A DNA stretch of 43,980 nt from a virus. The DNA lies in the IMG/VR virus record IMGVR_UViG_3300045988_137699, positions 1 through 43,980 of that record; one strand, 5' to 3'. The notes under the pieces were generated by a model that worked only from the letters and a program-made list of their open reading frames with translations, had not been told where the DNA came from and did not search any database. Shown one piece after another: positions 140 through 42,183 of the stretch. The first letter of the stretch is position 1; each line of letters begins with the position of its first letter. The position numbers and the translations under genes are program-made.

Positions 140-1141
140 TTATTTTAATTTTGCATTTACAATTGATTGTATTGTATTATAATCATAACCTGCTGCTTGA
201 AGTCTTGATTTTCTTTCTGTACCATTTCCCCATAATCCTTTTATGACTTCATTTGCAATTGTATCATTTGATTTTTTATTTGATGTTACAGATTTTGCAC
301 CTAAAATTTCATTAACTTTATTTTGAACTGCATTACCATCATAACCTGCCGCTGCTAATCTATTAAATCTATCTTGTCCATTTCCCCATTGTCCTGCGAT
401 AACTTCTTTTGCAATTTCATCTATGGATTTTAATTTTGGCTTTGATGTTGTTGAATTTCCACTTAATTTTGCATTTACAATTGATTGTATTGTATTATAA
501 TCATAACCTGCATTAGTAAGGGCAATTTTTCTTGTATCACCATTTCCCCATTTACCTGCAATAACTTCTGCTGCAATTTCTTCATTTGATTTGCTTACAT
601 TAGATGGTGTTGATGGTACAGATGAATTCCCTTCTAATATTGAATTTACTGTGTTTGCTAATTCTTGAAATTTACCTTGTAAATATTGACCTGGACAATT
701 AGTATTTGCAAACATATTGTGTCTTGTTAATGAACCATTTGGTGTTCCATCATATGTCAATTTAAAATCATATCTTGTACAAATATCAACACATAATTTT
801 ATCAATGCATTCCAAGCTGCATCAGAAATTTTCCATTTGCCACCAATTTCACAATTTGAAACTTCAATTGTTATTGCTTGGCAATCATTTGAACTTGAAC
901 TTGATGTCCATGCTCTATTATTTTCATCTACACAACCTACTATTCCACCATCATTTCCTATACAATAATTTGCACTAGCTTGTCTATTTGGATTTTGGAA
1001 AATTCTTGCACACTGTTCACCACTTAATACACCAGCCATATGATGTGGTGTAATTTTACAAATTTTATGTCCTTTTCTTCCATTTGTATAATTATTTGCA
1101 GATGCTAACACCTGACTTCTTATTAAACTTGAAAATCCCAT
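140..1141 (-). CDS. Endolysin: N-acetylmuramoyl-L-alanine amidase (Amidase_2/PGRP-like) with three C-terminal CW_7 (Cpl-7-type) wall-binding repeats
   Basis: The N-terminus (ITPHHMAG...ANYCIG...AWTSS...ITIEV) is amidase_2-like. The motif VIxGxWGNGxxRxxxLxxAGYDxxxxQxxVNxxL occurs three times. The gene sits at the end of the late operon next to a holin. Confidence 0.85.
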   Translation of the reverse strand: MGFSSLIRSQVLASANNYTNGRKGHKICKITPHHMAGVLSGEQCARIFQNPNRQASANYCIGNDGGIVGCVDENNRAWTSSSSSNDCQAITIEVSNCEIGGKWKISDAAWNALIKLCVDICTRYDFKLTYDGTPNGSLTRHNMFANTNCPGQYLQGKFQELANTVNSILEGNSSVPSTPSNVSKSNEEIAAEVIAGKWGNGDTRKIALTNAGYDYNTIQSIVNAKLSGNSTTSKPKLKSIDEIAKEVIAGQWGNGQDRFNRLAAAGYDGNAVQNKVNEILGAKSVTSNKKSNDTIANEVIKGLWGNGTERKSRLQAAGYDYNTIQSIVNAKLK

Positions 1142-2285: not shown

Positions 2286-3373
2286 TTCTTTTCACCCTTC
2301 CTTTTTATATTTTTTAAATAATATTGATTAGAATGAAATTCAAGTGGTTTTATATATTTCTTTTGTAATCTATAACTATCACAATGAATTAACCATCCTT
2401 TATAAGAATTGATTGAACACCATTCTGAATAATTAATTTCATTACCACTTTTTATTTTATTTCTAATTTTATTCATTTTACTTTTAAAATTTTTGCAAGT
2501 TGATTTTCTTAATAACTTGTAATTTAAAAATGTTCTATATCCTACATAATCAATTCCCCTTACAAATGTTGGGAACACTTGCCAATTTTCTTTAATTTTT
2601 AATTTTAATTTTGTTTTAAAATATACATCAATTTCTTTTCTTAATTGATGTAATTTTTCTTTTGATTCGGCTAATATAACTATGTCATCCATATATCTGA
2701 AATAATATTTAATATGCTTTTCTTCTTTTATCCAATGGTCAAATGAAGAAAAATAAAAATTACCACTATATTGTGAAATATAATTTCCAATTGGTATTCC
2801 TGTATCACCTGGTGTTGAATCAATAATTTCATCAAGTAACCAAATCAAATCTTTATCTTTGAACAATTTTCTATACTTATTTTTTAATATTTCATGATTT
2901 ATTGATGGATAATACTTTTTGGCATCAATTTTCAAACAATATTGTGTACCTTTCACATCTGTTTGAATTGCTTTTTCAATTCTGTGTAATGCTTTATGTA
3001 TTCCCCTTCCTGGTATTGCTGAATAAGTATCAGTAATAAAATTTTTAACAAGTATTGGTTCAATTACTTGTAATATTGCCCATTGTGCAATTCTATCAGG
3101 ATAATATGGCAATTTATAAATTTTTCTTTCCTTCCCTGTATCATTCTTCATAAATGTTTCATATTCAGAAGTTTTATAAATTTTATTTATAAGCATATTT
3201 TGTAATTTTTTCAAATAATAATCAGGATTAGCATTAATTTCTTTTACTTCCTTATACCATCCTTTACCCTTTTGTGCATTTTTATGTGCAAGTTTCAAAT
3301 TATCCAAATCGCAAATTTTTTCATATAAATTTCCGTATCTTTTCATAATTTGCACTTCTTTCTTTGTATGCAT
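2282..3373 (-). CDS. DGR reverse transcriptase
   Basis: YMDD catalytic box (YFRYMDDIVILA). The DGR-typical motif IGNYISQ is present (IGxxxSQ). The N-terminus MKRYGNLYEKI is typical of DGR RTs, so the probable true start is 3346. The TR lies about 105 nt upstream. Confidence 0.92.
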   Translation of the reverse strand: MHTKKEVQIMKRYGNLYEKICDLDNLKLAHKNAQKGKGWYKEVKEINANPDYYLKKLQNMLINKIYKTSEYETFMKNDTGKERKIYKLPYYPDRIAQWAILQVIEPILVKNFITDTYSAIPGRGIHKALHRIEKAIQTDVKGTQYCLKIDAKKYYPSINHEILKNKYRKLFKDKDLIWLLDEIIDSTPGDTGIPIGNYISQYSGNFYFSSFDHWIKEEKHIKYYFRYMDDIVILAESKEKLHQLRKEIDVYFKTKLKLKIKENWQVFPTFVRGIDYVGYRTFLNYKLLRKSTCKNFKSKMNKIRNKIKSGNEINYSEWCSINSYKGWLIHCDSYRLQKKYIKPLEFHSNQYYLKNIKRKGEKK

Positions 3374-16609: not shown

Positions 16610-17719
16610 TTATCCCTTTGATATGATTCTTGCTATTGGAATAGCTTTGTGATTTATATATGTTCTGTTTGCTGCAACAGATTCTCCACTGTGAACTAAT
16701 TCCCAGTTTGCACCGTTTTTTAATTCTGCATCTGTTGGAGAATTTGAAGCCATATTTGCTTTTGTGAAAGAAATTCCAAATGGTGCGAATACTTTTCTTT
16801 GTCTTACATATAAAGTATCTTCACCACCATTTTTAGCTGGGTTTCTATCCATTTCATATGGTTTTTTTGCACCAATATTTTCATAATCAATAGCACCATC
16901 ACCTAAAACATATGATGTGTATTTTGTATATGCTTCTTGCGCTGCAACATAATTTGCTTGTCCTTCTGTTCCACTTTCTTTTACTGCTGCAACATTTTCA
17001 ACAGGCATTTCATCATCAATTATAACTATTTTTCCATTCCATGCTGCTAAATCTAATGGTCTTTCTATTCCATCAGCATCTGTATATGTTAAATGTTTTA
17101 CTAATTTTAAATTTTCAAGGTTTGTAGCAACATCACTGTGCATAAATACCATTGAAAATTTCTTTTTATTAGCACCACATGCTTGATTCATGGCTGTATT
17201 TAATGTTGTTTGACCAACTTTTGCTTCATCACCATCTTTACCTGTTATATCATATGTGTGCTTATCAACGAATTCTTTATTTTTTGTTCCTGTCATTGAA
17301 TAAATACCAGCTAATATTGCAAGTATTGTGTTTTGGTCTAAATTATCTAAATATTCAGCAACTTGGTCTTGAACATTATCCATGAAATCTTCATCTGATA
17401 CATCATCAGAAAAGTCTTTTTCTGTCCATGCTTTTGCACGACCAACAACTACTATACCACGATTAAATGTTTTTGTACTTGTTGCTGTAATATCTGTTTG
17501 ACCATCATAGTTTACTGCATCCCCATCTAATAAACCTTTCATTGCTATTTCAGCATAAACAGTTCCATTTTGTGATGTGAATACATCTCTAATATCTTTA
17601 CTTCCTTTTAATGCTTTTGATTTTTTTAATTCATTTGTTTTTAAGTTTGGTATTCTTGGATGCTCAACACCATACTTAAATGCTTTTTCGTTAAAACTCT
17701 TTGAATCGAATTTTCCCAT
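16610..17719 (-). CDS. Major capsid protein
   Basis: About 369 aa, following the scaffold gene. The ATG at 17719 has the RBS AAGGTGA 5 nt upstream; the ORF-track start at 17728 is a GTG. Confidence 0.8.
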   Translation of the reverse strand: MGKFDSKSFNEKAFKYGVEHPRIPNLKTNELKKSKALKGSKDIRDVFTSQNGTVYAEIAMKGLLDGDAVNYDGQTDITATSTKTFNRGIVVVGRAKAWTEKDFSDDVSDEDFMDNVQDQVAEYLDNLDQNTILAILAGIYSMTGTKNKEFVDKHTYDITGKDGDEAKVGQTTLNTAMNQACGANKKKFSMVFMHSDVATNLENLKLVKHLTYTDADGIERPLDLAAWNGKIVIIDDEMPVENVAAVKESGTEGQANYVAAQEAYTKYTSYVLGDGAIDYENIGAKKPYEMDRNPAKNGGEDTLYVRQRKVFAPFGISFTKANMASNSPTDAELKNGANWELVHSGESVAANRTYINHKAIPIARIISKG

Positions 17720-17743: not shown

Positions 17744-17761
17744 TGTATCTTTAAAGATACA
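17744..17761. promoter_or_regulatory. Perfect 18-bp palindrome TGTATCTTTAAAGATACA (copy a of a 4-member family) upstream of the capsid gene
   Basis: Read directly. It has the same arms as the sites at 40930, 41162 and 41622. Confidence 0.8.
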
Positions 17762-17789
17762 TTAAATTTAAAAAAATTTTAGACTTCAA
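17761..17789 (-). promoter_or_regulatory. Candidate sigma-70-type promoter for the capsid gene: TTGAAG-17 nt-TTTAAT
   Basis: On the minus strand the -35 is at 17784..17789 and the -10 at 17761..17766. The palindrome begins at the last base of the -10. Confidence 0.4.
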
Positions 17790-18414
17790 TTTCTGGGTGT
17801 TCTTCTAAATAAGCAGCCCTTTCATCATAAGTCATTTTTGACAAATCAACTTTGTCTTCACTTCCATCATCAGTATCACCTTTTCCAGGTTCAGCACCTT
17901 TGATTTTAGTTGTTTTCTTTTCAGAATCAAATAAGAATTTAGTATCATCACCTTTAACAAGTGTATCAAGTTGATTTTTTAATGCATCACCTTTTATATT
18001 TCCATTTTCATCAATTTCAAGTTTATCCAAATCATTTAATAATGCTTTTACTGCTTTATTATTTTTTGCTTTGGCATTTGAAAGTGCAGCATCTATTGCA
18101 GCATCTATTTTCATTTGTTTTATTTCTGCTGCATGTGCTTCTGCATTTGCTTTGTTTTCAGTTTGCAATGTTTCAATTTGTTTCTTTAATTCATCAATAT
18201 CACCTGTTGATTTTTTCAAAGTTTCAAGTTGACCATCTCTTTCTGAAACTTGACCTTTTAATGTTTCAACTTCTTTTTTACTTTCAGTAAGTTGTGTTTG
18301 AACTGTTTCCAATTCACCTTTTGCTTTTCCAATGTCTGTTGAATTTTCATCAAGTATCTTATCAATTGTTTCCTTGTCTTTAATTCCTAAATCTTCTAAA
18401 AATTTTCTTTGCAT
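17779..18414 (-). CDS. Capsid scaffolding protein (DUF4355-like)
   Basis: Helical and E/K/Q-rich, lying upstream of the capsid gene. The probable start is MQRKFLEDLG at 18414, or 18423. The ORF-track start at 18504 is probably too long. Confidence 0.65.
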   Translation of the reverse strand: MQRKFLEDLGIKDKETIDKILDENSTDIGKAKGELETVQTQLTESKKEVETLKGQVSERDGQLETLKKSTGDIDELKKQIETLQTENKANAEAHAAEIKQMKIDAAIDAALSNAKAKNNKAVKALLNDLDKLEIDENGNIKGDALKNQLDTLVKGDDTKFLFDSEKKTTKIKGAEPGKGDTDDGSEDKVDLSKMTYDERAAYLEEHPEIEV

Positions 18415-18633
18415 ATTTATCATCCTTTCTTCGCTTTTTCTCGTGGGTCGCATCCACATAAAATTTTGATATTGTTGTCTTTTCTCGACATCCAACCAGG
18501 TCATTTATGTAAAAATTGACAATAAAAAAGAAACTACAAAAATCTTGTAATTTCTTTAAAATAGGCAATTTTTTCACCTTATATAATGCCCATATAAGCA
18601 TTTAAAATCAGTGGGTAATATACTTTTATACCC

Positions 18634-19062
18634 TTATTTTAAGCCAACTTGGGCTTTTCCAACTACTTTTCCATTTTGAAAAGTTACATTTGCATTTCCA
18701 CCTGTTATTGTGTTACCATACCACATATAAATTTGTGTGTGATATTTTTCATCACCAATACTAACATCAGAAGTAAGTGTTCCATCTGAACCAATTATTT
18801 CTTTTACTTGTTCATATGTCATATCACTTTCAATTTTATTAAATTCTTCTAATGTTATAAGTTCTGATTTTTGGTTTGCTGAATTATTTTCAATGTTATT
18901 TGATGTATTCAATATTATTGAACCAAAAATACATATGAAAATAAAAACACATAAGAAAACATATATTCCTATATGATTCTTTTGAACCATTTTACAATTA
19001 GGACATATTTTTGCTTTTGGGTCTATTTCTGTTTTACAATATTTACATTTTTTCTTTTTCAT
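18634..19062 (-). CDS. Moron: zinc-ribbon, one TM helix, then an extracellular DUF3862/BLIP-like domain
   Basis: MKKKKCKYCKTEIDPKAKICPNCK, followed by the TM helix IGIYVFLCVFIFICIFGSIIL, followed by TLEEFNKIESDMTYEQVKEIIG...VTFQNGKVVGKAQVGL. The start at 19062 has the RBS AAAGGGGG. Confidence 0.55.
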   Translation of the reverse strand: MKKKKCKYCKTEIDPKAKICPNCKMVQKNHIGIYVFLCVFIFICIFGSIILNTSNNIENNSANQKSELITLEEFNKIESDMTYEQVKEIIGSDGTLTSDVSIGDEKYHTQIYMWYGNTITGGNANVTFQNGKVVGKAQVGLK

Positions 19063-19083
19063 TATAAAACCCCCTTTAATAAG

Positions 19084-19112
19084 AGTATATAACAATTTTT
19101 TATAAAAATCAA
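19084..19112 (-). promoter_or_regulatory. Candidate promoter for the moron: TTGATT-17 nt-TATACT
   Basis: On the minus strand the -35 is at 19107..19112, the -10 at 19084..19089, and the spacer is exactly 17 nt. Confidence 0.5.
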
Positions 19113-19321
19113 TTGTTTCTATCTTTGAAAAATTCTTTCCAATATGGATTTTCTTTATCAAATATTTCTTTTTGTTCTTTGGTTAAATTATATGGATAAT
19201 CTTCAAATAAATTATAAATTTTTTTCTTATCAAAGGTAAATAAGTGTTCCCCAATTTTTTCAGGATTATCAACCCACCATATTTGGTCAGTATCATTATT
19301 CTTATAAAAATTATTTTTCAC
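19109..19321 (-). CDS. 70-aa hypothetical protein directly downstream of the MuF gene (candidate immunity/partner protein)
   Basis: ORF track. Its start overlaps the MuF stop. Confidence 0.45.
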   Translation of the reverse strand: MKNNFYKNNDTDQIWWVDNPEKIGEHLFTFDKKKIYNLFEDYPYNLTKEQKEIFDKENPYWKEFFKDRNN

Positions 19322-21035
19322 TACCTTTTACCCCCTTTATTTGTTTATTTTCAGATGTATTTATATAACCCATTATTTCTTCAAATTCTGAATTATCTTT
19401 AAATGAATCAACTTCCATTAAAATATTTTTAGTTTTAAATTTTATTCCTTGTATTGAATGTGTTTGTTTACAATGAAATCTATTTTTCAAAATGTTAGTT
19501 GTTAATTGTTTAAATCCATTTTCTTTTGGTGATTGTAATTCTAAAAATTCATAAGTATTTTCTATTTTTCTTACAATTGCTGCATGACTTCCAGTTGCCA
19601 AATAATATTCTTTTCCTTCTTCCAATGTTTTTAATAGACTTGTAGTTGCCATAATATCATTAGTATTTTCAGCAACTATACTTTTAACACCAGGAAGTTG
19701 TGAAATCTTATAAATATTTGAAGTTGTTGAAAAGAAATCTTGACTTGAACCACCCCTAAAATCAAGTACATCTAATCCATTTTTATTTGCAATATATGCA
19801 AAACCTAATGATGAACATGAACCTTTTGTCATATCACCACCACTAATTTTTTGTACTATTTCATCAGTTGTTAATGATTCATCTAATTTTTGAACTGGAT
19901 TATATTCGATTTTTAAATCTTTCAACTGTTTTATAATTTCATTATTACTTATATTTATTTTATCATTTTTTGGTGTATTTTTCAAATTTACTTCATCTTG
20001 TACATATTTATTATACCAATCTTCATATTTCATTTTATCTGAAACATAATATGTTTTACCATCTTCACCTTTGGCTGCTCTTTCACCTTCATCATCAAAA
20101 TCATCATCAAAATGTGGAACTGTTGTACTTCTACAATAATTATGAAATGGTGGTGCTGTTATTCCTGGTTGATAATCTTTCATATCATATACTTTACCAT
20201 CTTGTTCCTTACATATTTCAGAAGTGTGTGAATCAAGTGTTGCAACAATTTCATATTTTTCAACATCTAATGCATTAAAACAATCTTTTTGTGCTAATTG
20301 TGAAAAATATGCATTTTCTGTCATTATTAAATTACCTGCTTGTGCTTTTGATGTATTAAATTTTTTTGATAAATATTTAATACTTTCATCAGGTGATTTT
20401 CCTGTTAAACACATTTTAGTTAATTCGTTGTGTAATTCATTTATAAGTTTTGTTTTATTTCCCCATATTCTTTCACTAAAATTCTTTTCATCTACTGCCC
20501 AAGGTTTATTAACAATTTTTGATAATTTATTTTGGTCTATATTTGTAACATTGAAACCAACATTAAAACCTTTTTGATATTCAAACATTGTGTGAAAATA
20601 ATTATTTATATATGAATTTTTTGTTAAATTATCAACTTCATCAAGTTCATTTCCAAATAATTTTTCCATCGTTTGTTGTGTTTGAATTTTTAAGGCTTCA
20701 AGTCTTGAAATATGATATTTAGTTGATGCATTTTCAAGTTCTTTCATCCAATGTTCATTTAATTCATTTTCATGTCCATATTTTATATATTCCTGAACAT
20801 TCCATTTAAATTCTTTTAATTCATTTGAATTTAATAACTTTTTTGCTTCATTTATTGTTATTTCATTATTATTTGCAAATCTTACATACCAACTATTTAT
20901 TTTATTTTCAATTTCTCTTTGTGCTTGATAAAAAGATTCTTCAATTCTTGAATATACTGTCATTGCTTCTTGATGTGATGCATTTTCTAACTGTCCAAAT
21001 CGCTGTTGCCAATATTCCTTATTCTTTTTCGCCAT
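19311..21035 (-). CDS. Minor head protein, SPP1 gp7 / Mu F family, with a C-terminal extension of about 240 aa and unknown function
   Basis: MuF core TLDSHTSEICKEQDGKVYDM...PPFHNYCRSTTVP at about aa 265-308. A further roughly 240 aa follow an acidic linker (DDDFDDEGE). Confidence 0.75.
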   Translation of the reverse strand: MAKKNKEYWQQRFGQLENASHQEAMTVYSRIEESFYQAQREIENKINSWYVRFANNNEITINEAKKLLNSNELKEFKWNVQEYIKYGHENELNEHWMKELENASTKYHISRLEALKIQTQQTMEKLFGNELDEVDNLTKNSYINNYFHTMFEYQKGFNVGFNVTNIDQNKLSKIVNKPWAVDEKNFSERIWGNKTKLINELHNELTKMCLTGKSPDESIKYLSKKFNTSKAQAGNLIMTENAYFSQLAQKDCFNALDVEKYEIVATLDSHTSEICKEQDGKVYDMKDYQPGITAPPFHNYCRSTTVPHFDDDFDDEGERAAKGEDGKTYYVSDKMKYEDWYNKYVQDEVNLKNTPKNDKINISNNEIIKQLKDLKIEYNPVQKLDESLTTDEIVQKISGGDMTKGSCSSLGFAYIANKNGLDVLDFRGGSSQDFFSTTSNIYKISQLPGVKSIVAENTNDIMATTSLLKTLEEGKEYYLATGSHAAIVRKIENTYEFLELQSPKENGFKQLTTNILKNRFHCKQTHSIQGIKFKTKNILMEVDSFKDNSEFEEIMGYINTSENKQIKGVKGSEK

Positions 21036-39149: not shown

Positions 39150-40502
39150 TTATTCCCCCCTTTCTATTTCTAAAATTTCATATTGTTTAAACAATTCATC
39201 ATTAAAGTCTTTTCGTTTTTGTAATGTTTCATAAATTGCTTCTTCAATGCTATTTTTACAAATCATTAAATAATAAAAACAATTTTGATTTTGACCAATT
39301 CTGTGTATTCTTTTTTTGCTTTGTTCAAACAATTCAGATTTATCTGTTAAAGTAAAATAAACAATTTTGTTAGCTTTTTGAAGATTTAACCCCATTGAAC
39401 CTGCTTGATATTGTATTAATGTAACTGAATTATCTTCATTTTCATATGCTGTTAAATCTTTCGTTTCTCCATTTACAATTGAAAGTGGTTTTTTATATTG
39501 CTTAACTATGTTTTTTAATTTTTTAAGTTCTTCATTATAATTGTAAAAAACAATTAATCTATCATTAGTTGATTCTAATAATTCTTTAAATGCTTGAAAT
39601 TTTTGTTTATTATATTGACCACATAACTGTCTTGCATATAATCTTTTTGTAAGTGGTGTATCTCCAACTAATTCAATTCTTGGTGTTATATCTTCACCTT
39701 CCCAATCTGAATGGTCTTCAAATTCTTTATAATTTAAGGTATCAAATACTATTATTGAGTTTTTCATAAATTTTCTATATTCTTTTGATGTAGGAATATT
39801 TATTGGAATTTCTATTTGTTCAGGTAAATCAAAGCATTCTTCTGTTTTCATAAATACTGCACCATGTTGTCTTAATTTTTCTTTCAATCTATCAACATTT
39901 TTATATGGTTCTTTTTTGTCCACATACCAAAATGGTGTACCACCTAGATTTTGTTTTTTCCAATTCACATATTGTTTGTTGTATAATTGTTCTGATATAT
40001 TCCAACCTAATAAATGAATTTGTGACCATAAATTTTCATATTTTCCTGATGATGGTGTTCCTGATAACAAAATTACATTTTTAGGTTTCATTTTTAACAC
40101 ATATTTTGTTCTTTCTGCTTTTGTATTTTGTACAATGGAACTTTCATCAAGCATCAATGTAAAATCTTCTAATTCTCTAAAATATGACCTTCTAAATATC
40201 AAATCATAATTTATTACACCAACTTTTTTAATATGTAATCCAATTCCTTCCTTAAAATATTTTAATTGTAATTTATCTGTTAAATCATAAATTGAATAAT
40301 CTTTATAATATTTTACAAAGTGGTCAATCCAATCTTGAATTTTTGATTTTTGGCATATAATAATGTTTGTATTACTTCCAAGTTCATTCATTTTTTCAGA
40401 ACCAACAAATGTTTTTCCAAGTCCCATATCAAGATAATATGCTACATTATTAAATTGTTTTGTTAATTCTAATGCTTTCTTTTGATGTTCATATAATTTC
40501 AT
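39150..40502 (-). CDS. SNF2-family helicase
   Basis: Motif I DMGLGKT, motif II LMLDESS, motif VI KKRIHRIGQ. Confidence 0.8.
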   Translation of the reverse strand: MKLYEHQKKALELTKQFNNVAYYLDMGLGKTFVGSEKMNELGSNTNIIICQKSKIQDWIDHFVKYYKDYSIYDLTDKLQLKYFKEGIGLHIKKVGVINYDLIFRRSYFRELEDFTLMLDESSIVQNTKAERTKYVLKMKPKNVILLSGTPSSGKYENLWSQIHLLGWNISEQLYNKQYVNWKKQNLGGTPFWYVDKKEPYKNVDRLKEKLRQHGAVFMKTEECFDLPEQIEIPINIPTSKEYRKFMKNSIIVFDTLNYKEFEDHSDWEGEDITPRIELVGDTPLTKRLYARQLCGQYNKQKFQAFKELLESTNDRLIVFYNYNEELKKLKNIVKQYKKPLSIVNGETKDLTAYENEDNSVTLIQYQAGSMGLNLQKANKIVYFTLTDKSELFEQSKKRIHRIGQNQNCFYYLMICKNSIEEAIYETLQKRKDFNDELFKQYEILEIERGE

Positions 40503-40948
40503 TATTCGTTCCTTTCTTCATATTCACCAACATATTCCTTAAATTTTTTAGGACTAATATGATATGACCATTTACTTTTTTTCTTTGAAGCAAACCCAAA
40601 AGGTGCTGTTCCCATTTGTAATGCAACTCTAACAAATTCTTCTGATTTACCAAGTATCATTGCAGCTTTCCAAATTGGTATATTATTGCAAGTATTTATA
40701 TTTAAATCTTGTGTGGATTCTTTCTCTAAATCTTCAACTGTGCAATTGAGAAAGTTTGCAATATCTTCTTTTACATTTTGTTGTGGAATATGTTTTCCTG
40801 TTAAATATTGACTAATTGATGATTTACCTTTATTTATTCCTTTTGCTAAATCCACTTGTGAAATTTCTAATTCATTCATTTTCTGTTTTAAATTACTTGC
40901 AAAGCTCAATTTCTTCATTCCTTTCATTATGTATCTTTTAAGATACAA
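40502..40948 (-). CDS. XRE-family HTH DNA-binding protein with a C-terminal extension
   Basis: ISQVDLAKGINKGKSSISQYLTGK is an HTH_3-type motif. The 5' end is uncertain because the annotated first codons overlap palindrome copy b. Confidence 0.6.
   Translation of the reverse strand: MYLKRYIMKGMKKLSFASNLKQKMNELEISQVDLAKGINKGKSSISQYLTGKHIPQQNVKEDIANFLNCTVEDLEKESTQDLNINTCNNIPIWKAAMILGKSEEFVRVALQMGTAPFGFASKKKSKWSYHISPKKFKEYVGEYEERNE
40930..40947. promoter_or_regulatory. Palindrome copy b: TGTATCTT-tt-AAGATACA
   Basis: Read directly; 8-bp arms. Confidence 0.8.
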
Positions 40949-41141
40949 GCAAATTAAAAAATTTTATTATTTTTCTTTTTAATATTCTTTTATCTTCTTT
41001 ACTCCAATATCTGATGCTTGATATACCAAATATTATCATATAAATTGAACATTTAATTATAGCATCCTTAAAACTAATAGTGTCATTTTCTAATGCTCCA
41101 ACTGTTCCCAACATCATTATAAAACTTAAAAAACAAATCAT
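40938..41141 (-). CDS. 67-aa membrane protein
   Basis: Two hydrophobic helices (ICFLSFIMMLGTVGAL and IIKCSIYMIIFGISSI). Confidence 0.4.
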   Translation of the reverse strand: MICFLSFIMMLGTVGALENDTISFKDAIIKCSIYMIIFGISSIRYWSKEDKRILKRKIIKFFNLLVS

Positions 41142-41161
41142 TTTATTTTCCTTCTTTCTTT

Positions 41162-41179
41162 TGTATCTTTCAAGATACA
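41162..41179. promoter_or_regulatory. Palindrome copy c: TGTATCTT-tc-AAGATACA
   Basis: Read directly; 8-bp arms. Confidence 0.8.
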
Positions 41180-41180
41180 G

Positions 41181-41393
41181 TTAACTTAAAAAAATTTCAA
41201 CCACTTCTTGGTCTGTTAAATTATATCTTTCTTTTATTATTTGAATTTCACTTTGTGTGAATTCTGCCCCATTTGTACTGTTTCTTTTGGCTGATAATCT
41301 TTGTTGTGATAAATCCAATGCTTTTGATAATGTTTCGTTGGTATCACCATATAATGCCATTTTTGAATTTAATAAATTCAAATTAACTTTCAT
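41181..41393 (-). CDS. Cro-like small HTH regulator
   Basis: MKVNLNLLNSKMALYGDTNETLSKALDLSQQRLSAKRN...FTQSEIQIIKERYNL resembles lactococcal and streptococcal phage Cro-type proteins. The RBS GAAAGGGGTGA precedes the ATG at 41393. Confidence 0.5.
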   Translation of the reverse strand: MKVNLNLLNSKMALYGDTNETLSKALDLSQQRLSAKRNSTNGAEFTQSEIQIIKERYNLTDQEVVEIFLS

Positions 41394-41595
41394 TATTTTC
41401 ACCCCTTTCAATAAACTTATTATTGTTATACTGTTTCATAATTTTAATTGTAACTTTTCCATCAGGCTCTTTTGCTTTTTCTTTTAAAATAAATTCTTGA
41501 TTATTTCTTTGTAATTTTGAAATATAATCTTCAAATTCTTTTTCATCATCAAACTGTATCATCTGATAAATAGCTGCTGAAATTACTTTTTTCAA
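41383..41595 (-). CDS. First early ORF (hypothetical); probable TTG start at 41595 after the RBS GGAAGGTGA
   Basis: The ORF-track start at 41640 lies upstream of the predicted transcription start, so a downstream start is more plausible. Confidence 0.35.
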   Translation of the reverse strand: MKKVISAAIYQMIQFDDEKEFEDYISKLQRNNQEFILKEKAKEPDGKVTIKIMKQYNNNKFIERGENNES

Positions 41596-41621
41596 TTTTT
41601 TCACCTTCCTTCGATTTGTTT

Positions 41622-41639
41622 TGTATCTCATAAGATACA
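41622..41639. promoter_or_regulatory. Palindrome copy d: TGTATCT-cata-AGATACA, at about +1 of the early promoter
   Basis: Read directly; it lies 3 nt downstream of the -10 element. Confidence 0.8.
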
Positions 41640-41642
41640 CAT

Positions 41643-41671
41643 ATAATATATCAAACTTTTTCTGTTGTCAA
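41643..41671 (-). promoter_or_regulatory. Early lytic promoter: TTGACA-17 nt-TATTAT
   Basis: On the minus strand the -35 is at 41666..41671 and the -10 at 41643..41648; near-consensus. Confidence 0.7.
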
Positions 41672-41674
41672 TAC

Positions 41675-41707
41675 TTTTTGAAAAAAAATTTTACATTTTT
41701 TCAAAAA
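41675..41707. promoter_or_regulatory. Inverted repeat TTTTTGAAAAAA-9 nt-TTTTTTCAAAAA between the divergent promoters (candidate operator)
   Basis: Read directly; 12-bp arms. The sequence is low complexity. Confidence 0.4.
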
Positions 41708-41711
41708 AACT

Positions 41712-41739
41712 TTCAAATGCTGAATAAATATGCTAAAAT
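41712..41739 (+). promoter_or_regulatory. Candidate repressor-gene promoter: TTCAAA-16 nt-(TGc)TAAAAT
   Basis: -35 at 41712..41717 and an extended -10 at 41731..41739, about 35 nt upstream of the cI-like ATG, which has the RBS AAAGGAG. Confidence 0.5.
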
Positions 41740-41772
41740 AATGATATAAATAAATATGAAAGGAGAAAAAAT

Positions 41773-42183
41773 ATGACAACTGCTGAAATAATTTACAAAT
41801 ACCGTAAAGAACATAATAACATGTCACAAGAAGAATTTGGTCAAAAAGTAGGTGTTAATCGTGCTGCTGTTTCCAAATGGGAAAAAGGTCATGTTAAAGA
41901 AATGAAAGGTAAAACAATTTTAAATGTTTGCAGATTAATTGGTTGTACACCCTATGAACTCATGGGATGGGATGAAGAATTTAATTCATTTAATAAATTA
42001 AGTAATGAAGTAAAATTGATTGAAACTATTCAATTACAATATGGGAAAGATTCAGTTGAATTATTAAATTATTTTACAAAACTTAATTCAATTGGAAAAG
42101 AAAAAGCCATTGAAAATATAATTGATTTAACTTCTATTCCCAAATATATAATACAAGAAAAAAGGGATGCCAAGGTACTATAA
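41773..42183 (+). CDS. cI-like XRE-family repressor
   Basis: HTH_3 motif MSQEEFGQKVGVNRAAVSKWEKG. It is divergent from the early operon. Confidence 0.8.
   Translation: MTTAEIIYKYRKEHNNMSQEEFGQKVGVNRAAVSKWEKGHVKEMKGKTILNVCRLIGCTPYELMGWDEEFNSFNKLSNEVKLIETIQLQYGKDSVELLNYFTKLNSIGKEKAIENIIDLTSIPKYIIQEKRDAKVL

What the first reader, a model, noticed from the sequence alone, without database searches (positions are those of the whole stretch)
40930..41639. Family of 18-bp palindromes TGTATCTT-NN-AAGATACA preceding each of the first three early genes
Three near-identical palindromes occur within 710 bp:
- 41622..41639 (TGTATCT-cata-AGATACA)
- 41162..41179 (TGTATCTT-tc-AAGATACA)
- 40930..40947 (TGTATCTT-tt-AAGATACA)

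The first begins 3 nt downstream of the near-consensus early promoter (TTGACA-17-TATTAT), at about the transcription start. Each copy lies roughly 10-25 nt upstream of the RBS of the next minus-strand gene.

Copies b and c share extended flanks (AAATTTTTTAA...palindrome...AAAGAAAG). A 14-16-nt motif recurring this way cannot be chance in 44 kb.

Two readings are possible. It may be a DNA operator for one of the phage HTH proteins (the cI-like 41773..42183, the Cro-like 41181..41393, or the XRE protein 40502..40948). Alternatively it may be a 7-8-bp RNA stem-loop placed before each cistron, acting as a processing or stabiliser signal or as a protein-binding hairpin.
Basis: seen in the sequence. 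Interest (0 to 1): 0.62.

Follow-up and report, generated by a model that had tools for sequence, protein, structure and literature searches.

The report
Repressor operators of a CI–MOR phage switch
The repeated 18-bp palindrome is most likely the DNA docking site of this gut Clostridia phage's own lysogeny repressor, laid out like the known switch of Lactococcus phage TP901-1, so it is a fairly ordinary feature with a few unusual extra copies.

Summary
TGTATCT-N4-AGATACA occurs four times, all exact, in this complete 43,980-bp phage; shuffles give none. The fourth copy (17744..17761) lies between the scaffold and major-capsid genes.

The palindromes are best read as DNA operators of the cI-like repressor (41773..42183).
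- The "Cro-like" gene is a homologue of TP901-1 MOR (PDB 6to6, E 7e-6; Pfam DUF739).
- Copy a sits at +1 of the early promoter, like TP901-1 OL. Copy b sits at the 3' end of mor, like OD.
- In TP901-1's own sequence OD overlaps the mor stop codon and follows a T7 run by exactly 8 nt, as copy b follows its T7 run.
- In 79 non-redundant sites from relatives the arms are invariant and the spacer is free, with no compensatory change and no G·U strand bias.
- Relatives carry extra half-sites in untranscribed promoter DNA.
- In a 2.9-Mb host genome every copy lies inside the prophage.

The RNA-hairpin reading is poorly supported (-5.3 kcal/mol).

Unusual points:
- extra copies c and d;
- a one-sided T5-8 run exactly 8 bp upstream of every non-promoter copy;
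- N4 spacing in this clade against N5 elsewhere.

The scan noted a relative before (e1-1167564). No binding has been shown experimentally.

The parts
41622..41639 (.). Copy a: operator at the transcription start of the early (lytic) promoter, the OL equivalent
   Evidence: Exact palindrome. It begins 3 nt after the -10 hexamer. Relatives carry a copy at the same place.
41643..41671 (-). Early promoter TTGACA-17-TATTAT
   Evidence: 11 of 12 matches, the best in the region. TTGACA-17-(-10) precedes copy a in the relatives.
41162..41179 (.). Copy b: operator just past the stop codon of the mor homologue, the OD equivalent
   Evidence: TP901-1 OD lies at the same place relative to mor and to the T7 run (PMC7250872).
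41188..41194 (-). T7 run ending 8 nt upstream of copy b (codons I-F-L of the MOR C-terminus)
40930..40947 (.). Copy c: a second distal operator, overlapping the stop codon of the 67-aa ORF and preceding the XRE gene's RBS
   Evidence: It is kept in the close relatives. Relatives G006 and G008 lack the 67-aa ORF and have a single site here.
40956..40961 (-). T6 run ending 8 nt upstream of copy c (codons K-F-F of the 67-aa ORF)
17744..17761 (.). Copy d: fourth exact copy, in the gap between the scaffold gene and the major capsid gene
   Evidence: It is kept in G004, G005, L019 and L020, and with one extra spacer base (GTATCT-N5-AGATAC) in L022. Capsid relatives at 69% identity or less lack it.
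17770..17776 (-). Non-coding T7 run ending 8 nt upstream of copy d
41773..42183 (+). cI-like repressor gene (136 aa): an XRE/P22-c2-like HTH domain plus an all-helical C-terminal domain; the proposed binder
   Evidence: Pfam HTH_3, E 1.3e-10. Model pLDDT 82; the N-terminal domain matches P22 c2 at rmsd 1.5 A. In the recognition-helix stretch R-A-A, K and E are unchanged in every homologue listed, down to 30% identity.
   Evidence: Profile A2 against PDB 6to6/6tri 'MOR': E 7.1e-6 over nearly the full length. Pfam DUF739 in 14 of 20 homologues. K36 and the C-terminal IFF/YFF are conserved.
41383..41595 (-). First early ORF (70 aa, TTG start), function unknown
   Evidence: no family hit.
40938..41141 (-). 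67-aa hydrophobic ORF flanked by copies b and c. Its C-terminus KFFNLLVS* resembles the MOR C-terminus IFFxxxVS*.
40502..40909 (-). XRE-HTH protein gene (probable TTG start at 40909); unlikely to be the binder
   Evidence: Pfam HTH_3. G009 keeps a 47% homologue but has no motif. The Ihubacter homologue lacks the HTH but that prophage keeps the motif.
17779..18504 (-). Scaffold protein gene upstream of copy d
   Evidence: Pfam PF06810, E 5e-38.
16610..17719 (-). Major capsid protein gene downstream of copy d (probable ATG start at 17719)
   Evidence: PHROG 247 major head protein, E 6e-80. Sequence read.

Best explanation
The four palindromes are double-stranded DNA operators for dimers of the phage's cI-like repressor. 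They belong to a lysogeny switch of the TP901-1/phi13 (CI plus MOR antirepressor) type.

Copy a covers the transcription start of the early promoter, so bound repressor blocks early transcription. It is the OL equivalent. Copy b, at the 3' end of the mor homologue, is the OD equivalent. Copy c is a duplicate of that module, created when a 67-aa ORF was inserted.

Copies b and c most likely strengthen repression by cooperative binding with DNA looping over 460 and 690 bp, by a repressor that oligomerises through its helical C-terminal domain. This clade has no OR-type site, so a, b and c may be the three sites of one oligomer.

Copy d (before the capsid gene) and similar extra copies in relatives (before the DNA polymerase gene, after a methyltransferase gene) are further repressor sites. 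Their role is either long-range looping or blocking of read-through transcription.

Shown here: sequence, positions, conservation, protein homologies and layout identity with TP901-1.
Inferred: which protein binds, looping and oligomer state.
Not tested: any binding.
For: 1. Four exact copies against 0.00 expected.

2. The mor homology is solid: A2 against PDB MOR gives E 7e-6 over nearly the full length, and DUF739 is found in 14 of 20 homologues. TP901-1 mor is itself annotated as DUF739.

3. TP901-1's own DNA has the same layout. PL is TTGACA-17-TATACT. OL lies 9 nt later with 8-N3-8 geometry. OD overlaps the mor stop codon and is preceded by T7 plus 8 nt. PMC7250872 states that OL overlaps PL, that OD lies in the distal part of mor, and that this topology is shared although operator consensus sequences differ.

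4. In 79 non-redundant sites, arm positions 2-6 are nearly invariant and the spacer is free. There are 0 compensatory changes, and G·U-compatible changes number 4 in the sense strand against 4 in the antisense strand. This is the signature of major-groove DNA reading, not of an RNA stem.

5. Relatives carry half-sites or whole sites in untranscribed switch DNA. These overlap or centre on the -35 hexamer, lie in the promoter spacer, or sit next to the cI promoter.

6. Spacing is uniform within a genome: N4 at all four sites in this clade, N5 at all sites in the others.

7. The motif goes with cI plus mor. All 25 loci with these genes have the motif, most with 2-4 sites. The 55 loci without them have mostly one copy (two have two), as chance would give. 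G009, which has a different repressor and a different cro, has no motif.

8. In the cI recognition-helix stretch R-A-A, K and E are unchanged down to 30% identity. MOR helix 3 varies.

9. In the complete 2.9-Mb Ihubacter genome all 4 matches lie within 14 kb of the prophage.

10. The cI N-terminal domain matches the P22 c2 repressor fold. From my own knowledge, P22 c2 binds 18-bp operators with an uncontacted centre.
Against:
- No chain named as TP901-1 CI appears among the PDB sequence or fold matches to cI. The family link therefore rests on MOR and on the layout.
- This clade has no OR-type site between the promoters, unlike TP901-1.
- Copy d, 23 kb away in the late operon, has no counterpart in the TP901-1 model.
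- The one-sided T run 8 bp upstream of every non-promoter copy (94-96% T at -9 to -13) is not explained by simple operator function.
- G006 carries the same asymmetric variant (right arm AGCGTACA) at both of its sites.
Confidence: 0.8

Rival explanations
1. The downstream copies (b, c, d) act mainly as repressor-dependent transcription roadblocks, not as looping partners. RNA polymerase arriving from upstream stalls against bound cI while it is on, or just entering, the T5-8 run 8 bp upstream, and is released there. This would be a dimeric-repressor analogue of mycobacteriophage stoperators and of the Reb1 plus T-rich element of RNA polymerase I terminators. It is compatible with the best explanation for copy a.
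For: - Every non-promoter copy has the T run ending exactly 8 bp upstream, whether the run is coding or non-coding. This holds in at least 7 independent gene contexts and in genomes up to 60% GC, while the 8-nt spacer between them diverges.
- Promoter copies lack the run.
- The run is one-sided, with no mirrored A run downstream.
- The extra copies sit at gene junctions deep in operons: capsid, DNA polymerase, methyltransferase.
- Precedents: stoperators (PMC9283540); LacI, CcpA and CodY roadblocks with release by Mfd (PMC4132739); Pol I pausing in a T-rich sequence 15 bp upstream of the roadblock site, where the T-rich element reduces read-through (PMC12366685).
Against: - The T run at copy b is explained by the conserved MOR C-terminus (IFF/YFF codons) and is also present at TP901-1 OD. 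The other copies could have inherited it when the module was duplicated.
- Because OL always lies upstream, a bend-prone A/T tract inside the loop would show the same one-sidedness.
- A stall about 14-15 bp before the block would put the RNA 3' end at the start of the T run, not at its end. This geometry is from memory for bacterial polymerase and is unverified.
- There are only four sites, not the 20-30 of stoperators.
Confidence: 0.25
2. The palindromes work as RNA: a 7-bp stem-loop at the 5' end of the primary transcript and before the RBS of later cistrons. It would act as a stabiliser, a processing signal or a site for an RNA-binding protein.
For: - Each copy lies a few nt before an RBS in this phage.
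- Copy a lies at about +1, so the transcript could begin with the hairpin.
- A U run upstream could be an RNase cleavage region.
- Folding of the b, c and d contexts pairs the U run with the purine-rich RBS.
Against: - The hairpin is weak, -5.3 kcal/mol, and the context folds are not better than shuffles (z -1.1 to -1.5).
- The stem sequence is invariant and the loop is free, the reverse of known hairpin-protein recognition. There are 0 compensatory changes in 79 sites, and single changes give G·U no more often on the mRNA strand than on the other strand.
- Relatives have half-sites in DNA upstream of the -35 hexamer, which the early mRNA does not contain.
- RBS adjacency is not universal: 25-45 nt in L141, L143 and L148, and one site is followed by a terminator-like hairpin instead of a gene start.
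- The homologous TP901-1 and phi13 sites are experimentally shown DNA-binding sites for CI (PMC8516035, PMC4941734).
- No Rfam match.
Confidence: 0.07
3. The binder is the MOR homologue or the XRE protein rather than cI.
For: - Both carry HTH motifs.
- mor co-occurs with the motif in every family locus.
- In TP901-1 a CI:MOR complex is proposed to contact DNA at OM sites next to OR (PMC7250872).
Against: - MOR helix 3 is highly variable while the half-site never changes.
- An XRE homologue is present without the motif in G009, and the motif is present in the Ihubacter prophage although its homologue lacks the HTH.
Confidence: 0.06
4. Copies c and d are functionless leftovers of recombination between OD modules. 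They would be module-boundary sequences that moved genes in and out, and are kept only because they are recent.
For: - Copies b and c flank the inserted 67-aa ORF, whose C-terminus (KFFNLLVS*) copies the MOR C-terminus FFxxxVS*.
- The extra copies carry the T run and an RBS-like flank as if copied as one block.
Against: - Copies c and d stay exact or within one mismatch across relatives whose cI is only 81-85% identical, while the flanking 8-nt spacers diverge.
- The DNA-polymerase copy is kept in relatives as far apart as G008 and the Ihubacter prophage.
Confidence: 0.1

Closest known systems
Lactococcus phage TP901-1 CI/MOR genetic switch (operators OR, OL, OD) and Staphylococcus phage phi13
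   Same: - Divergent cI and mor genes, with a MOR homologue (DUF739).
- One palindromic operator over the start of the lytic promoter.
- A second palindromic operator at the distal end of mor, overlapping or abutting its stop codon, preceded by the T run of the FF codons by exactly 8 nt, and followed by the next gene's RBS.
- A 19-bp 8-N3-8 geometry in most relatives.
- Both short (no peptidase) and long (S24 peptidase) CI forms use the same operators, as with TP901-1 versus phi13 (PMC8516035).
   Different: - The half-site is TGTATCT(T), not AGTTCAYR.
- No chain named as TP901-1 CI appears among the PDB matches to this cI.
- This clade has no OR site between the promoters, uses 18-bp (N4) sites, and has two extra copies (c, and d before the capsid gene).
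- The hosts are gut Clostridia.
Mycobacteriophage L5 / cluster A operators and stoperators
   Same: One repressor-site family is used both at the early promoter and at short gene junctions far inside operons. There is a directional feature relative to transcription (here the one-sided T run).
   Different: Stoperators are asymmetric 13-bp sites bound by a monomer with two DNA-binding domains, and there are more than 20 per genome (PMC9283540). Here the sites are symmetric palindromes for a presumed dimer, and there are only four.
Lambda OL-OR and phage 186 FL/FR distal operators (looping by CI oligomers)
   Same: Identical operators far from the regulated promoter increase repression by looping.
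   Different: The protein families and spacing differ, and lambda uses triple tandem operators. No oligomer state is known here.
P22 c2 repressor and its 18-bp operators
   Same: The best structural match of the cI N-terminal domain (rmsd 1.5 A). From my own knowledge, P22 c2 also uses an 18-bp symmetric site with an uncontacted central spacer.
   Different: Sequence identity is only about 28%. The half-site sequence and the C-terminal domain are different.

Membership tests
TP901-1/phi13-type CI-MOR lysogeny switch | A MOR (DUF739) antirepressor gene transcribed divergently from cI | tested here: met
   Profile A2 against PDB 6to6/6tri MOR: E 7.1e-6, residues 5-71 against 9-73. DUF739 in 14 of 20 homologues. 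The window's own copy alone gave no Pfam hit. The gene order is divergent.
TP901-1/phi13-type CI-MOR lysogeny switch | CI with an N-terminal XRE-type HTH and either a helical or a peptidase C-terminal domain | tested here: met
   HTH_3. The model has a five-helix N-terminal domain plus three C-terminal helices. Long relatives have S24-like C-terminal domains.
TP901-1/phi13-type CI-MOR lysogeny switch | CI sequence homology to TP901-1 CI | tested here: not met
   No chain named as TP901-1 CI appears among the 56 PDB matches at E up to 5 or among the 50 listed fold matches. The nearest are PezA and P22 c2.
TP901-1/phi13-type CI-MOR lysogeny switch | A palindromic operator overlapping the lytic promoter or its start (OL) | tested here: met
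   Copy a begins 3 nt after the -10 hexamer. Relatives show the same arrangement. TP901-1 OL lies 9 nt after its -10.
TP901-1/phi13-type CI-MOR lysogeny switch | A distal operator at the end of mor (OD) | tested here: met
   Copy b starts 1 nt after the mor stop codon. In N5 relatives and in TP901-1 the operator overlaps the stop codon, and T7 plus 8 nt lies upstream in both. PMC7250872 places OD in the distal part of mor.
TP901-1/phi13-type CI-MOR lysogeny switch | A central operator between the divergent promoters (OR), with flanking OM sites | tested here: not met
   No half-site with up to 1 mismatch in 41640..41772. Relatives do have half-sites or whole sites there.
TP901-1/phi13-type CI-MOR lysogeny switch | CI binds the operators and forms hexamers; MOR binds CI | not testable with these tools
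   This needs EMSA or footprinting, SEC or native mass spectrometry, and pull-down assays.
Mycobacteriophage stoperators | An asymmetric 13-bp site read by a monomeric two-domain repressor, with more than 20 sites per genome | tested here: not met
   The sites are perfect palindromes, there are four per genome, and cI has a single HTH domain.
Mycobacteriophage stoperators | Sites inside operons that halt elongation in an orientation-dependent way | not testable with these tools
   Copies b, c and d lie at gene junctions and have a one-sided T run. Any effect on elongation is untested.
Protein-binding RNA hairpins (boxB/nut, MS2-operator type) or structural 5' stabilisers | The stem is kept by compensatory changes; the loop or bulge is conserved; strand-specific G·U tolerance | tested here: not met
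   0 compensatory changes. The spacer is free and the arms are invariant. G·U changes number 4 sense against 4 antisense. Hairpin energy is -5.3 kcal/mol.
Intrinsic terminators | A GC-rich hairpin followed by a U tract | tested here: not met
   0 terminator-like sites in either region. The T run lies upstream of the hairpin, not downstream.

The most novel reading that the evidence does not exclude
The non-promoter copies, together with their invariant one-sided T5-8 tract exactly 8 bp upstream, form a dedicated element: a repressor-dependent roadblock terminator. In the lysogen, cI bound at gene junctions (mor/early genes, DNA polymerase, capsid) stops stray polymerases on a weak rU:dA hybrid. 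This would extend the stoperator principle to ordinary dimeric CI repressors of Firmicute phages, TP901-1 OD included.

A second, independent possibility is that this clade gained a new immunity specificity only by shortening the half-site spacing from N5 to N4, with the recognition helix unchanged.
Probability: 0.22. Interest if true: 0.65.

Novelty: new member of a known kind. Interest (0 to 1): 0.33.

Why it matters
It places an uncultivated family of gut and rumen Clostridia phages, together with prophages in Lachnospiraceae and Ihubacter, in the CI-MOR switch class. Until now that class has been studied in lactococcal, streptococcal and staphylococcal phages.

It also gives the likely operator sequence, TGTATCT-N4/5-AGATACA. 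This makes immunity groups predictable from sequence and supplies a ready repressor/operator pair for genetic tools in Clostridia.

The extra copies and the fixed T run are cheap to test. They could show that distal CI operators, including the long-known OD of TP901-1, do more than loop DNA.

Tried and rejected
- **Host-genome repeat:** rejected. All matches in a complete 2.9-Mb host genome lie inside the prophage, and the window is a complete phage with only four copies.
- **Feature of the capsid module:** rejected. Capsid relatives at 69% identity or less have no palindrome there.
- **Sigma-70 promoters at b, c, d:** not supported. It is not listed by the scan, its -35 is lost in G005 (L017), and no consistent -10 exists across relatives. 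The TTGAAA-17-TATCTT match at b is not conserved.
- **Intrinsic terminators:** none found.
- **Known RNA family:** none found.
- **Nut-like boxA-8 nt-boxB reading:** considered because of the T run-N8-hairpin geometry. Dropped because the stem, not the loop, is conserved, and there is no N-like protein.
- **Link between the N4/N5 spacing and the cI C-terminal domain type or the 2-residue PP insertion before helix 3:** rejected. Short cI proteins without the insertion also use N5.
- **Half-site enrichment across the window:** only marginal, 124 against 99 +/- 10.
- **Close isolated phage:** none. The best has 34% cI identity, and the DNA search found nothing relevant.
- **Lysogen-expressed promoter upstream of copy d (18400..19400):** promoter-like matches there are no more frequent than chance.
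Full report
**1. The observation**

The three palindromes are exact at 40930..40947, 41162..41179 and 41622..41639. A fourth exact copy lies at 17744..17761. Shuffled sequence gives 0.00 exact matches, and no further copy appears at up to 2 mismatches.

The window is a complete IMG/VR phage record of 43,980 bp with direct terminal repeats, so four is the whole count.

The promoter TTGACA-17-TATTAT (41671..41643) is the best sigma-70-like match in the region and ends 3 nt before copy a.

On the minus (coding) strand, copies b, c and d each follow a T6-7 run by exactly 8 nt, and each precedes a purine-rich RBS.

Copy d sits in the 50-nt gap between a scaffold gene (PF06810) and the major head protein gene (PHROG 247).

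**2. Relatives**

The cI protein found seven close relatives in viral contigs. All four positions a, b, c and d are kept in those that cover them.

More distant relatives came from several searches:
- through the XRE protein;
- through a cI profile in bacterial genomes, which gave Clostridia MAGs from goat, sheep and yak gut, Lachnospiraceae, and Ihubacter sp. rT4E-8;
- through a pattern scan.

These relatives carry the same arms with one more spacer base, TGTATCT-N5-AGATACA.

Of 80 loci from the pattern scan, 25 encode cI and/or the small 'Cro-like' protein, and most of these have 2-4 sites. The other 55 have mostly one copy (two have two) and no such genes.

In the complete 2.9-Mb Ihubacter genome all four matches lie within 14 kb of one prophage. 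The motif is therefore phage-specific and not a host repeat.

**3. What the small gene is**

A profile of 20 homologues of the 70-aa 'Cro-like' protein (A2) matches the solved structure of MOR, the modulator of repression of Lactococcus phage TP901-1. The match is to PDB 6to6/6tri, E 7.1e-6, over almost the whole length. Fourteen of the 20 homologues hit Pfam DUF739, which is the family TP901-1 mor is annotated with. K36 and the C-terminal (I/Y)FF are shared.

The cI-like protein has an XRE HTH domain. Its model (pLDDT 82) has an N-terminal domain that superposes on P22 c2 repressor at 1.5 A, followed by three C-terminal helices and no peptidase domain.

Relatives have either this short form or a long S24-peptidase form, and both go with the same operator. 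The literature describes the same pairing for TP901-1 versus phi13 (PMC8516035, PMC11149083).

**4. The layout equals TP901-1**

I read the TP901-1 switch directly:
- PL is TTGACA-17-TATACT.
- OL (AAGTTCATG-AAA-CGTGAACTT, an 8-N3-8 site) starts 9 nt later.
- OD (AAGTTCATTAAACATGAACTT) overlaps the mor stop codon.
- OD follows a T7 run (the YFF codons) by exactly 8 nt, and is followed by the RBS of the next gene.

PMC7250872 says that OL overlaps PL and that OD lies in the distal part of mor. It adds that this topology is shared among switches whose operator consensus differs.

Copy a therefore corresponds to OL and copy b to OD. For TP901-1 and phi13, binding of CI to these sites has been shown by EMSA and native mass spectrometry (PMC4941734, PMC8516035).

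**5. DNA or RNA?**

I collected 79 non-redundant sites with at most one mismatch, oriented in the sense of the early genes.
- Arm positions 2-6 are nearly invariant, and the spacer is free.
- There is not one compensatory double change.
- Single changes give G·U on the mRNA strand 4 times, G·U on the other strand 4 times, and a mismatch on both strands 19 times.

This is what a major-groove reader of duplex DNA produces, and it is the reverse of known RNA hairpin-protein sites.

Relatives also have half-sites where the early mRNA does not reach:
- an everted pair and a site overlapping the -35 hexamer in G006;
- a full palindrome centred on the -35 hexamer in L130;
- a third site upstream of the -35 hexamer in L146 and L177;
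- a half-site in the promoter spacer in many relatives;
- a half-site just after the TGnTAAAAT of the presumed cI promoter.

The hairpin itself is worth only -5.3 kcal/mol, and its contexts fold no better than shuffles. Rfam finds nothing.

**6. Which protein binds**

G009 keeps a 47% XRE homologue but has a different repressor (HTH plus ImmA-type partner) and a different cro. It has no motif. The Ihubacter homologue of the XRE protein lacks the HTH half, yet that prophage has four sites. The XRE protein is therefore out.

cI and mor always co-occur with the motif. In the cI recognition-helix stretch R-A-A, K and E are unchanged in every homologue listed, down to 30% identity. Helix 3 of the MOR homologues varies freely. 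[quoted passage not shown] This is an inference.

**7. Copies c and d**

Relatives G006 and G008 have one site between mor and the XRE gene. In the window's clade a 67-aa hydrophobic ORF sits there, flanked by copies b and c. That ORF ends KFFNLLVS* with its stop codon inside the palindrome, just as MOR of the N5 relatives ends IFFxxxVS*. Copies b and c therefore look like a duplicated OD module left by the insertion.

This clade has no OR-type half-site between the promoters. Copies a, b and c could then be the three sites of one repressor oligomer. This is speculation by analogy with the TP901-1 hexamer.

Copy d is kept only in the closest relatives. It is absent from capsid relatives at 69% identity or less, so it belongs with the immunity system and not with the capsid module.

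Other lineages have extra copies elsewhere: before the DNA polymerase gene (G008, Ihubacter, L186, L191, L196) and after a methyltransferase gene. The minimal set in many complete relatives is a plus b.

**8. The unexplained part**

All 53 non-promoter sites have T at -9 to -13 in 94-96% of cases, and almost never at -8 (2%). The 26 promoter sites lack the run, and there is no mirrored A run downstream.

At OD the run is the FF codons of MOR. It is equally present in non-coding DNA (copy d and the polymerase copies) and in a 60% GC contig, while the 8 nt between the run and the palindrome diverge.

Two readings fit:
- an intrinsically bent A/T tract inside the loop toward OL;
- a U tract on which polymerase stalled by bound cI is released.

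The second has precedents: stoperators (PMC9283540), LacI roadblocks resolved by Mfd (PMC4132739), and the T-rich element 15 bp before the Reb1 roadblock of Pol I (PMC12366685). I cannot decide between the two, and the exact stall geometry for bacterial polymerase is from memory.

**9. Spacing**

All sites in this clade are N4 (18 bp). All sites in every other relative are N5 (19 bp, as in TP901-1), with the same arms and the same recognition helix. A concerted change at every site of a genome again points to one trans-acting reader. It suggests a change of immunity specificity by spacing alone. I found no protein feature that tracks it.

**10. Verdict**

The finding is real and non-random. 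Its first interpretation (an operator) is right in kind, and its second (an RNA hairpin) is unsupported. It is a new member of the known CI-MOR switch class, found in uncultivated Clostridia phages; the nearest isolated phage has 34% cI identity.

It has three features worth a bench test: the extra distal copies, the fixed T run and the N4 spacing. The scan had already noted a relative with three copies spaced 231 and 461 bp apart (e1-1167564).

No binding, looping or roadblock has been shown.

Noticed in passing
window 17770..17776, 40956..40961, 41188..41194; relatives: Every non-promoter copy of the operator has a T5-8 run ending exactly 8 bp upstream, on the upstream side only. T is 94-96% at -9 to -13 and 2% at -8 in 53 sites. 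This holds in both coding and non-coding contexts. TP901-1 OD has the same T7 plus 8 nt arrangement. The function is unknown.
   Followed up: partly
window, all four copies, versus L115-L120, L129, L173 and others: The window's clade uses N4 spacing at all sites. All more distant relatives use N5 with identical arms and the same cI recognition helix. This may be an immunity change by spacing alone.
   Followed up: partly
window 40938..41141: The 67-aa hydrophobic ORF is flanked by operator copies b and c. It ends KFFNLLVS*, mimicking the MOR C-terminus IFFxxxVS* of relatives. It looks like an insertion into the mor-OD junction that duplicated the module.
   Followed up: partly
L084 (G006) 948..966 and 2452..2470: Both full sites of G006 carry the same asymmetric right arm (TGTATCTT-RAA-AGCGTACA). 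The loose half-sites in its switch region are canonical. A concerted asymmetric variant is unexplained.
   Followed up: no
L130 4855..4873; L146 2860..2939; L177 3022..3101: In some relatives the -35 hexamer TTGACA is the centre of a full operator (ATCTTGACAAGAT), or a third site lies upstream of the -35 hexamer. These are OR-like sites that the window's clade lacks.
   Followed up: partly
L113 1519..1580 (G008); L129 7448..7490 (Ihubacter prophage): An operator copy directly precedes the DNA polymerase gene in several relatives. In G008 an 11-bp GC-rich hairpin sits just upstream, with the T run in its loop.
   Followed up: no
window 40502..40948: The XRE gene most likely starts at TTG 40909 (MSFASNLK...), as in relatives, not at 40948. 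Its C-terminal half (PHROG 6058) exists as a separate 67-aa protein without the HTH in the Ihubacter prophage.
   Followed up: partly
loci L141, L143, L152, L169, L173, L120 versus the window: Short (120-145 aa, helical C-terminal domain) and long (200-245 aa, S24 peptidase-like C-terminal domain) cI forms share the same operator arms and the same mor partner. This parallels TP901-1 versus phi13.
   Followed up: partly
L146 11564..11582; L177 11747..11765: One operator copy with its T run is followed not by a gene start but by a strong terminator-like hairpin (CAGCGGTGTG...CACACCGCTG).
   Followed up: no
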